From NCBI RefSeq assembly GCF_045037415.1, contig NZ_CP173438.1: DNA of 64,000 nt. One strand, written 5' to 3'. Positions within the stretch are counted from its first letter, which is position 1. Each line of letters opens with the position of its first letter. The notes beneath the pieces are model-generated. The model saw only the letters and a list, made by a program, of their open reading frames with translations. It had not been told where the DNA came from and ran no database searches. The stretch is from Escherichia coli. GTDB lineage: Bacteria > Pseudomonadota > Gammaproteobacteria > Enterobacterales > Enterobacteriaceae. Positions 17,334 through 18,759 of the stretch are shown here, one piece after another. Made by a program: the position numbers and the translations under genes.

Positions 17334-18011
17334 CTACATTAAGGCAAGATTGATGTACTTTCCGGTTGCCGCATTTTCTGGATTTTCTGCAAGCCAGGGA
17401 ATTTCGCCCAGCAGCGGCGCGGGAATCATGCGGGTGAGCGTGGTCATATATTCAGCGTGACGTTTTCCCGGAGGCGTGACATCGTTCGCCACCCACCCCG
17501 CCAGAGTCAGTCCGGCGTGTAGTATTGCCTGCGCAGTCAACATCGCGTGATTAATACAGCCGAGTTTCACGCCCACAACCAGTATCACTGGCAGTTGTTC
17601 CTGTGTTACCCAATCCGCAAAAGTGAAAGTGTCAGAAAGCGGCGTAAACCAGCCGCCAGCACCTTCCACTAACACCCAGTCAGCCTGTTGTTCAAGCGCG
17701 CGTAATCCGGCGCTCATTACCAATGCTTCTATCGGCCTGCCCTCTTGCGCGCTGATGATATGCGGCGAGGTGGGTTCTGCGAAGGTGTAAGGATTTACCG
17801 TTGCGTAATCCAGCTGCAGGCTACTGTTGCGCTGTAACGCCAGCGCGTCACTATTACGTAAGCCTTTCGGGGTCTTTTCGCTGCCAGAGGCCACCGGTTT
17901 GTAACCTGCCGTCCGGTAGCCTGCTGCCTTTGCGGCTTGTAAAAGCGCGCAGCTGGCGACAGTTTTCCCCACTTCGGTATCCGTTCCGGTGACAAAATAA
18001 CATTTACTCAC
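17334..18011 (-). CDS. bioD: Dethiobiotin synthetase BioD
   Basis: [13 protein letters not shown]-loop; start assigned to GTG (MSKCYFVTG), the ORF track starts 2 codons earlier at TTG; overlaps bioC stop. Confidence 0.85.
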
Positions 18012-18759
18012 GAGCAATCACTCCCAAAAAAAGATGATACGTCAGAGGATATCGCCCCTGTTGTTGCGGCCAGGCCAGTTGCAATCGCTGCAACTGCGAA
18101 CGCGTTAATATTCGCGGGTCACGCCCTTCATGAAGATGCGTGGCACCGATGCCTTTCAGCGAACGCATGGCACTGAGCGCATCATCAAACCACAGCGTGA
18201 TGGGCTGAATATAATGTTGATAATGCACGGCGTTTAGCGACTGTTCGATTTCATCTGGCGGTAAAAAGCGATTAGCATGCGGACGCTCGTCCACCGCCTG
18301 CCACGCCTGATGCAGTTCGGGTAACGATCCCTGCACCAGCGTGGTAAACGCGACCACGCCTCCGGGGCGCACCACCCGATACAGCTCGCGGAGTGCCGTG
18401 GATAAATTACCGCACCACTGCACCGCGAGATTGCTCCATGCAAGATCGAACGTCGCAGTCGCTAACGGCAGGGATTCGATATCTCCCGCCAGATAATGGT
18501 CTGCGGCATCCTTCTGGCGTGCCTGAACAAGCATTGGCGGAGAGAGATCTAACGCAGTCACCTGCGCGTGACGCTCTCGCCAGCGGCGGCTCATCCAGCC
18601 TGGTCCACAACCCGCATCCAGTACGCGGGTGTATTTACGCTGTGGGAGCATTGCCAGTAAGGCGTCAGCACTCTGGCGCTGTAGATCGGCGTGTTGCTCA
18701 TAGTGTGCGGCTGCCCGTCCAAATGCCGCAGCAATGGCTTGTTTATTAACCGTTGCCAT
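18004..18759 (-). CDS. bioC: Malonyl-ACP O-methyltransferase BioC
   Basis: SAM-methyltransferase motif VLDAGCGPG; start at internal Met [13 protein letters not shown]. Confidence 0.9.

What the first reader, a model, noticed from the sequence alone, without database searches (positions are those of the whole stretch)
17997..18017. bioD appears to use a non-ATG start and differs near the N-terminus from K-12
The first in-frame start codons for bioD are TTG (18017) and GTG (18011), giving MSKCYFVTG from the GTG, whereas I recall ATG and MSKRYFVTG in K-12. If correct this is a strain-specific start-codon change and an R-to-C substitution, possibly altering translational coupling with bioC (8-nt overlap).
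Basis: partly seen in the sequence, partly recalled or inferred. Interest (0 to 1): 0.15.

Follow-up and report, generated by a model that had tools for sequence, protein, structure and literature searches.

The report
Ordinary bioD start, common R4C variant
The biotin gene bioD here starts with GTG exactly as in E. coli K-12 and other enterobacteria, and its one nearby amino-acid difference (Arg4 to Cys) is a common lineage variant found in about a fifth of complete E. coli genomes, so the finding is ordinary.

Summary
On the minus strand there is a TTG at 18017, a GTG at 18011, the bioC stop TAA at 18006-18004 (an 8-nt overlap), and the product starts MSKCYFVTG.

K-12 MG1655 bioD is annotated from the same GTG, with the same 8-nt overlap. 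The 50 nt before the start codon are identical in K-12, including the GGGAG Shine-Dalgarno, and so are codons 1-3. At least 5,420 of 5,424 complete E. coli genomes with bioD have the G of that GTG. All 38 Enterobacterales species representatives sampled have the GTGANTAA junction.

The only real local difference is C-to-T at 18002 (codon 4, CGT to TGT, R4C). It is not strain-specific. 1,035 of 5,426 genomes (19%) carry it, including CFT073, IHE3034 and ST131. The window is nearly identical to strain SK1144.

Residue 4 varies between genera (R/T/S/G/A/Q/N/K). The predicted mRNA structure at the start is the same for both alleles. This is a known, annotated allele (WP_000030923.1) of dethiobiotin synthase. 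Interest is very low.

The parts
17334..18011 (-). bioD coding sequence (dethiobiotin synthase, 225 codons plus stop), starting at GTG
   Evidence: ORF. PGAP annotation of the near-identical strain SK1144 gives bioD at 17334-18011, protein WP_000030923.1. NCBIfam TIGR00347 bioD equivalog scores 223.6 bits against a cut-off of 83.3. Six amino-acid differences from K-12. Full-length match to solved E. coli DTBS 1a82/1byi/1dad, E=6.7e-146.
18009..18011 (-). GTG initiation codon of bioD
   Evidence: Same codon at the annotated K-12 start, 812270. The G is exact in 1,035 + 4,385 E. coli genomes. GTG is at the homologous position in 38/38 Enterobacterales species representatives. PDB chains of the E. 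coli enzyme begin SKRYF (224 aa) or MSKRYF.
18015..18017 (-). In-frame TTG two codons upstream, the first mechanical start after an in-frame TGA; very probably not used
   Evidence: Only 3 nt downstream of the GGGAG Shine-Dalgarno. A TTG sits at this position in only 16/38 Enterobacterales, whereas the GTG is in 38/38. Annotations and PDB chains start at the GTG.
18021..18025 (-). GGGAG Shine-Dalgarno-like element inside the end of bioC, 9 nt upstream of the GTG
   Evidence: Read directly from the sequence. Identical in K-12, CFT073, MS15236 and GF4-3. GGAG/GGAGT recurs at the same place in most Enterobacterales loci. Function is inferred from the consensus and was not tested.
18004..18006 (-). 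bioC stop codon TAA, inside bioD codons 2-3 (8-nt overlap GTGAGTAA)
   Evidence: The same overlap is in K-12. A TAA in the same register is present in 38/38 Enterobacterales loci.
18000..18002 (-). bioD codon 4, TGT (Cys); K-12 has CGT (Arg). The SNP is at 18002
   Evidence: Alignment with K-12. The T allele is in 1,035 genomes and the C allele in 4,387.
18004..18759 (-). bioC coding sequence (malonyl-ACP O-methyltransferase), upstream partner of the overlap
   Evidence: SK1144 annotation on collinear coordinates. The ORF is mechanically extended to the ATG at 18798.

Best explanation
This is the normal bioC-bioD junction of an E. coli bioBFCD operon. bioD starts at the GTG at 18011, 9 nt downstream of a GGGAG Shine-Dalgarno that lies in the last codons of bioC. 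It overlaps the bioC stop by 8 nt (GTGAGTAA). This arrangement is ancestral to the Enterobacterales and identical in K-12. It is typical of translationally coupled operon genes.

The only local difference from K-12 is a C-to-T transition in codon 4 (R4C). It is a derived, widely inherited allele of a large E. coli lineage that includes the B2-type strains CFT073, IHE3034 and ST131. It sits at a residue that varies between genera, just before the conserved [13 protein letters not shown] beta-strand and P-loop. It most likely has no effect on enzyme function or on initiation.

Shown here: the sequence identity of the junction, the allele frequencies, the conservation of the GTG and the overlap, and the variability of residue 4. 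Inferred: use of the Shine-Dalgarno, translational coupling, and neutrality of R4C.
For: K-12 bioD is annotated from the same GTG with the same 8-nt overlap. The 50 nt before the GTG and bioD codons 1-3 are identical in K-12.

I used 55-mer megablast queries in which every possible 28-base seed covers the tested base. The T allele is in 1,035 genomes and the C allele in 4,387, together 5,422 of the 5,424 genomes with bioD. The G of the GTG is exact in 1,035 + 4,385 genomes.

All 38 Enterobacterales species representatives have GTG and an overlapping TAA. The upstream reading frame stays open for at least 100 codons in 34 of them.

Residue 4 across 66 species is R27, T16, S11, G4, A3, Q3, N1, K1. 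The most divergent E. coli bioD sampled (GF4-3, 91% identity), E. albertii, E. whittamii and Salmonella all have Arg, so Cys is derived.

PDB chains of E. coli DTBS begin SKRYF or MSKRYF. The MFE structure and energy (-14.6 kcal/mol) of -40..+40 are the same for both alleles, and the unpaired probability of the SD is the same (0.213). Against K-12 the gene has 27 synonymous and 6 non-synonymous differences, as expected for a gene under purifying selection. TIGR00347 bioD scores 223.6 bits.
Against: No experiment on this allele was available. Neutrality of R4C rests on its frequency and on the variability of the site. Cys itself was not seen at this position in any of the 66 other species sampled, so it is an unusual residue for the site. 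The pattern search only samples BioD genes with an exact [15 protein letters not shown] motif, so the species sample is biased. I assign the T-allele carriers to phylogroup B2 from my own knowledge of a few named strains, not from a typing run. The PDB chain sequences are what depositors entered and are not in themselves N-terminal sequencing data.
Confidence: 0.93

Rival explanations
1. Translation starts at the upstream in-frame TTG (18017), giving MLVSKCYF..., so the protein is two residues longer than annotated.
For: TTG is the first possible start after the in-frame TGA, and the mechanical ORF begins there. A TTG is also present at that position in K-12 and 16 of 38 Enterobacterales.
Against: It lies only 3 nt after the GGGAG element, which is too close for normal SD spacing (the spacing rule is established knowledge). 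It is replaced by non-start codons (TTT, TTC, TTA and others) in 22 of 38 Enterobacterales, while the GTG is invariant. Curated K-12 and PGAP annotations and the PDB chains use the GTG start.
Confidence: 0.03
2. R4C is functionally meaningful. For example, it could change BioD stability, dimerisation or redox sensitivity, or the C-to-T change at +10 could alter initiation efficiency or coupling with bioC in the carrying lineage.
For: Arg to Cys is a non-conservative change. Cys was not seen at this site in the 66 other species sampled. The base lies within the region covered by an initiating ribosome (established knowledge).
Against: The allele is fixed in about 19% of complete genomes, including successful, widespread lineages. 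The site tolerates R/T/S/G/A/Q/N/K across genera. The predicted mRNA structure is unchanged. The SD, start codon and overlap are identical to K-12.
Confidence: 0.05
3. The C-to-T difference is a sequencing or assembly error in this window.
For: None beyond its being a single base.
Against: The same base is found in 1,035 independent complete genomes, and 1,010 of them match the surrounding 55 bases exactly.
Confidence: 0

Closest known systems
E. coli K-12 MG1655 bioD (b0778, NP_415299.1), dethiobiotin synthetase, with its bioC-bioD junction
   Same: Same GTG start, same GGGAG element 9 nt upstream, same 8-nt GTGAGTAA overlap with bioC, same length (225 codons), and the same operon order bioBFCD divergent from bioA.
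   Different: 33 of 678 nucleotides differ (27 synonymous, 6 non-synonymous: R4C, E49K, S96A, V162A, Q164L, L225M).
RefSeq WP_000030923.1, dethiobiotin synthase of E. coli SK1144 and other strains (B2-type bioD allele; cf. CFT073 WP_000030929.1)
   Same: The 767-nt query covering bioD and the end of bioC is 100% identical in SK1144. 940 genomes are at least 99% identical over that query. CFT073 has the same six substitutions relative to K-12.
   Different: Nothing in bioD. The window differs from SK1144 at 5 positions in the first 50 kb, none of them in bioD.
Solved structures of E. coli dethiobiotin synthetase (PDB 1a82, 1bs1, 1byi, 1dad-1dah, 1dts)
   Same: Full-length alignment, E=6.7e-146. 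The P-loop GTDTEVGKT and the rest of the chain are conserved.
   Different: The structures carry Arg at the position that is Cys here (residue 3 in mature-chain numbering), plus the five other substitutions.

Membership tests
Dethiobiotin synthase BioD (NCBIfam TIGR00347 equivalog; Pfam AAA_26 PF13500) | Profile match above the curated cut-off | tested here: met
   TIGR00347 scores 223.6 bits against a cut-off of 83.3, E=1.5e-66. PF13500 scores 142.4 bits against 27.
Dethiobiotin synthase BioD (NCBIfam TIGR00347 equivalog; Pfam AAA_26 PF13500) | N-terminal P-loop (GxxxxGK[TS]) after beta-strand 1 | tested here: met
   [13 protein letters not shown] at residues 5-17, identical to K-12 and to the PDB chains.
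Dethiobiotin synthase BioD (NCBIfam TIGR00347 equivalog; Pfam AAA_26 PF13500) | Near-identity to the experimentally characterised E. coli enzyme | tested here: met
   219 of 225 residues are identical to K-12 BioD and to PDB 1a82.
Dethiobiotin synthase BioD (NCBIfam TIGR00347 equivalog; Pfam AAA_26 PF13500) | Biotin-operon context (last gene of bioBFCD, divergent from bioA) | tested here: met
   bioA (+) at 21024-22313, then bioB, bioF, bioC and bioD on the minus strand from 20937 to 17334.
Dethiobiotin synthase BioD (NCBIfam TIGR00347 equivalog; Pfam AAA_26 PF13500) | ATP-dependent conversion of 7,8-diaminopelargonate plus CO2 to dethiobiotin | not testable with these tools
   This needs an enzyme assay or complementation with the Cys4 allele.
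Translationally coupled overlapping gene pair (stop of the upstream gene inside the start region of the downstream gene) | Start codon of the downstream gene upstream of, and overlapping, the stop codon of the upstream gene, with the SD inside the upstream gene | tested here: met
   GTGAGTAA: GTG at 18011-18009, TAA at 18006-18004, GGGAG at 18025-18021. Conserved in 38/38 Enterobacterales.
Translationally coupled overlapping gene pair (stop of the upstream gene inside the start region of the downstream gene) | bioD translation depends on bioC translation | not testable with these tools
   This would need premature-stop or frameshift mutants in bioC with a bioD reporter.
   K-12 has the same GTG. 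At least 5,420 of 5,424 E. coli genomes carry the G.

The most novel reading that the evidence does not exclude
The Cys4 allele, which marks about a fifth of sequenced E. coli and was not seen at this position in the 66 other species sampled, might give BioD a lineage-specific property. Examples would be a redox-sensitive thiol near the N-terminus or slightly altered initiation at the coupled GTG. Such a property could tune biotin synthesis in extra-intestinal pathogenic lineages.
Probability: 0.04. Interest if true: 0.25.

Novelty: already known. Interest (0 to 1): 0.03.

Why it matters
It matters very little. The result removes a false lead: there is no start-codon change.

It also records two small facts. 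The GTG start and the 8-nt bioC/bioD overlap are conserved across the Enterobacterales. R4C is a convenient lineage marker of a large, B2-type E. coli group rather than a private mutation.

For annotation, the GTG at 18011 should be called as the start, not the mechanically first TTG at 18017.

Tried and rejected
1. One search used a 55-mer centred on the G of the GTG, taken from the window. It was meant to count all E. coli genomes with that G. It returned only the 1,035 T-allele genomes. The T7 run at the 5' end of the query was most probably masked by the low-complexity filter, which left no 28-base seed free of the codon-4 SNP. I repeated it with the K-12 version to cover the C-allele genomes.

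2. The literature search for 'bioD / GTG / start codon' was swamped by words beginning 'biod...' (biodiversity, biodegradation) in mitochondrial-genome papers. It gave nothing usable. The classic bio-operon sequence and DTBS structure papers are not in the open library, so I did not pursue it.

3. I considered a large protein-database homologue search to judge conservation of residue 4. I replaced it with a cheaper degenerate-DNA pattern scan of species-representative genomes, which answered the question.

4. I considered structure prediction to judge the exposure of residue 4. I rejected it because the tool does not return side-chain accessibility and solved structures of the K-12 enzyme already exist.

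5. I considered a sequencing error and the TTG start; both are rejected under the rival explanations.

Full report
**1. What is in the sequence**

On the minus strand the region reads ...CATCTTTTTTTGGGAGTGATTGCTCGTGAGTAAATGTTATTTTGTCACCGGAACG.... The positions are:
- In-frame TTG at 18017-18015.
- GTG at 18011-18009.
- bioC stop TAA at 18006-18004.
- A GGGAG Shine-Dalgarno-like element at 18025-18021, 9 nt before the GTG and only 3 nt before the TTG.

The mechanical ORF list starts the gene at the TTG (17334-18017, 227 aa). It shows bioC ending at 18004. Translation from the GTG gives (M)[16 protein letters not shown]....

**2. Comparison with K-12**

In NC_000913.3, bioC is 811522-812277 and bioD is 812270-812947. 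bioD begins GTGAGTAAACGTTATTTTGTC. K-12 therefore uses the same GTG and has the same 8-nt overlap.

In the alignment, the 50 nt before the GTG and the first nine coding bases are identical. The first difference inside bioD is C-to-T at coding position 10 (window 18002), which changes codon 4 from CGT (Arg) to TGT (Cys).

Over the whole gene there are 33 nucleotide differences, 27 synonymous and 6 non-synonymous: R4C, E49K, S96A, V162A, Q164L and L225M.

Its recollection of an ATG start was wrong.

**3. How widespread each feature is in E. coli**

A 767-nt query covering bioD and the end of bioC matched 5,424 of 5,426 complete E. coli genomes. 940 of them were at least 99% identical to the window.

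To count alleles I used 55-nt megablast queries with the tested base at position 28, so that every possible 28-base seed must contain it.
- The window version (T at codon 4) hit 1,035 genomes.
- The K-12 version (C) hit 4,387 genomes.
- Together these account for 5,422 of the 5,424 genomes with bioD.

T-allele carriers include CFT073, IHE3034 and an O25b:H4-ST131 strain. I know these as phylogroup B2; that assignment is my own knowledge and was not tested.

The same design centred on the G of the GTG gave 1,035 T-allele genomes plus 4,385 C-allele genomes. At least 5,420 of 5,424 genomes therefore carry that G.

The window itself is almost identical to strain SK1144, with 5 mismatches in the first 50 kb and none in bioD. 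In SK1144, PGAP annotates bioD at exactly 17334-18011 (WP_000030923.1), overlapping bioC at 18004-18759.

**4. Other species**

A degenerate pattern encoding [15 protein letters not shown] was scanned over one genome per species. It gave 66 loci.

In all 38 Enterobacterales among them, the codon two positions before the Lys codon is GTG. These include Escherichia albertii, E. whittamii, Salmonella, Citrobacter, Enterobacter, Siccibacter, Pseudocitrobacter, Providencia, Chimaeribacter and Serratia symbiotica. In all 38, a TAA stop of the upstream frame overlaps codons 2-3 (GTGANTAA). The upstream frame is open for at least 100 codons in 34 of the 38; the other four run off the locus or are short.

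The TTG two codons further upstream is present in only 16 of the 38. In Vibrionaceae (Enterovibrio, Grimontia) the start is ATG, and the bioC stop lies upstream with no overlap.

The GTG start and the overlap are therefore ancestral features of the enterobacterial bio operon, not a strain peculiarity.

**5. Which codon is the real start**

Five lines of evidence favour the GTG over the TTG:
- SD spacing is 9 nt to the GTG against 3 nt to the TTG.
- The GTG is invariant across Enterobacterales, while the TTG position is variable.
- The curated K-12 annotation starts at the GTG.
- PGAP annotations of five strains start at the GTG.
- The solved E. coli enzyme chains begin SKRYFVTG (224 residues, 12 entries) or MSKRYFVTG (1dts).

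GTG starts are common in E. coli, roughly one gene in seven (my own knowledge).

**6. The R4C substitution**

Residue 4 lies just before the conserved [13 protein letters not shown] strand and P-loop. Across the 66 species it is R (27), T (16), S (11), G (4), A (3), Q (3), N (1) or K (1). In the Francisella enzyme structure it aligns with Lys. The site is therefore tolerant of change, although Cys was not seen outside E. coli in this sample.

Arg is found in the most divergent E. coli bioD sampled (GF4-3, 91% identity). It is also found in E. albertii, E. whittamii, other Escherichia species and Salmonella. Cys is therefore the derived state.

The T allele also occurs on a somewhat different bioD haplotype (MS15236, 96.9% identical to the window). 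It is thus older than, or has spread beyond, the window's exact haplotype.

**7. Effect on initiation and coupling**

I folded -40..+40 around the start with ViennaRNA. Both alleles gave the same minimum-free-energy structure and energy (-14.6 kcal/mol) and the same unpaired probability for the SD (0.213). The start codon differed only slightly, 0.30 against 0.34.

The SD, start codon and overlap are unchanged, so the sequence gives no reason to expect altered coupling. Whether bioD is actually coupled to bioC is inferred from the overlap architecture and was not tested.

**8. Identity of the gene**

The protein matches the bioD equivalog TIGR00347 (223.6 bits; cut-off 83.3) and Pfam AAA_26. 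It is 219/225 identical to the characterised K-12 enzyme. It is the last gene of bioBFCD, divergent from bioA.

**9. Verdict**

This is an ordinary gene with its ordinary, conserved GTG start. The single nearby amino-acid difference is a common, already annotated lineage polymorphism. The most novel reading not excluded is a lineage-specific functional effect of Cys4. I consider it improbable (about 4%), and it would be of modest interest even if true.

**10. What did not work**

One search found only T-allele genomes, probably because of low-complexity masking of the T7 run. One search remedied this. The literature search returned only irrelevant papers because of prefix matching on 'biod'.

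Noticed in passing
window 22939-22953 (-): An exact match to the 15-bp core of the phage lambda attachment site attB (GCTTTTTTATACTAA; recalled from memory). It lies in the 151-bp gap between ybhB (22372-22848) and ybhC (23000-24283), and 0 matches are expected by chance. The site appears unoccupied, with no prophage between gal and bio.
   Followed up: partly
window 17334-20937 (-): Every junction of bioBFCD is an overlap: bioB/bioF 4 nt (19897-19900), bioF/bioC 14 nt (18746-18759) and bioC/bioD 8 nt (18004-18011). The mechanical ORFs for bioC (to the ATG at 18798) and bioA (from 20913) are longer than the annotated genes (starts at 18759 and 21024).
   Followed up: partly
L005 (E. coli MS15236, NZ_CP082094.1) bioD, locus 190-867: This CSF isolate's bioD has D11N inside the otherwise invariant P-loop motif (GTDTEVGKT becomes GTNTEVGKT), in addition to R4C. 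It could impair the enzyme or be a tolerated variant.
   Followed up: no
L006 (E. coli CFT073, NC_004431.1) bioC/bioD: The RefSeq CFT073 record contains ambiguous bases (N) in the end of bioC and in early bioD. They give X residues at BioD positions 27-35 when translated.
   Followed up: no
L014, L023, L026, L031, L042, L045, L047, L051, L056, L062 (Grimontia and Enterovibrio): In these Vibrionaceae, bioD starts with ATG and the upstream gene's TAA stop lies a few bases before it (GAGCGATAAnnAATG). The overlap and GTG arrangement is therefore specific to the Enterobacterales branch among the loci sampled.
   Followed up: partly
window 18345, 19058, 28767, 45022, 47892: These are the only five mismatches between the window and E. 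coli SK1144 over the first 50 kb. Two fall in the bio operon (bioC and bioF). The window comes from a very close relative of SK1144 but not from that assembly itself.
   Followed up: no
window 13379-13523 (-) and 48393-49096 (-): By collinearity with the SK1144 annotation, there is a molybdenum-cofactor riboswitch upstream of moaA and an array of seven tRNA genes (five Lys, two Val) next to nadA. These are standard features of this chromosomal region. I did not re-scan the window itself.
   Followed up: no
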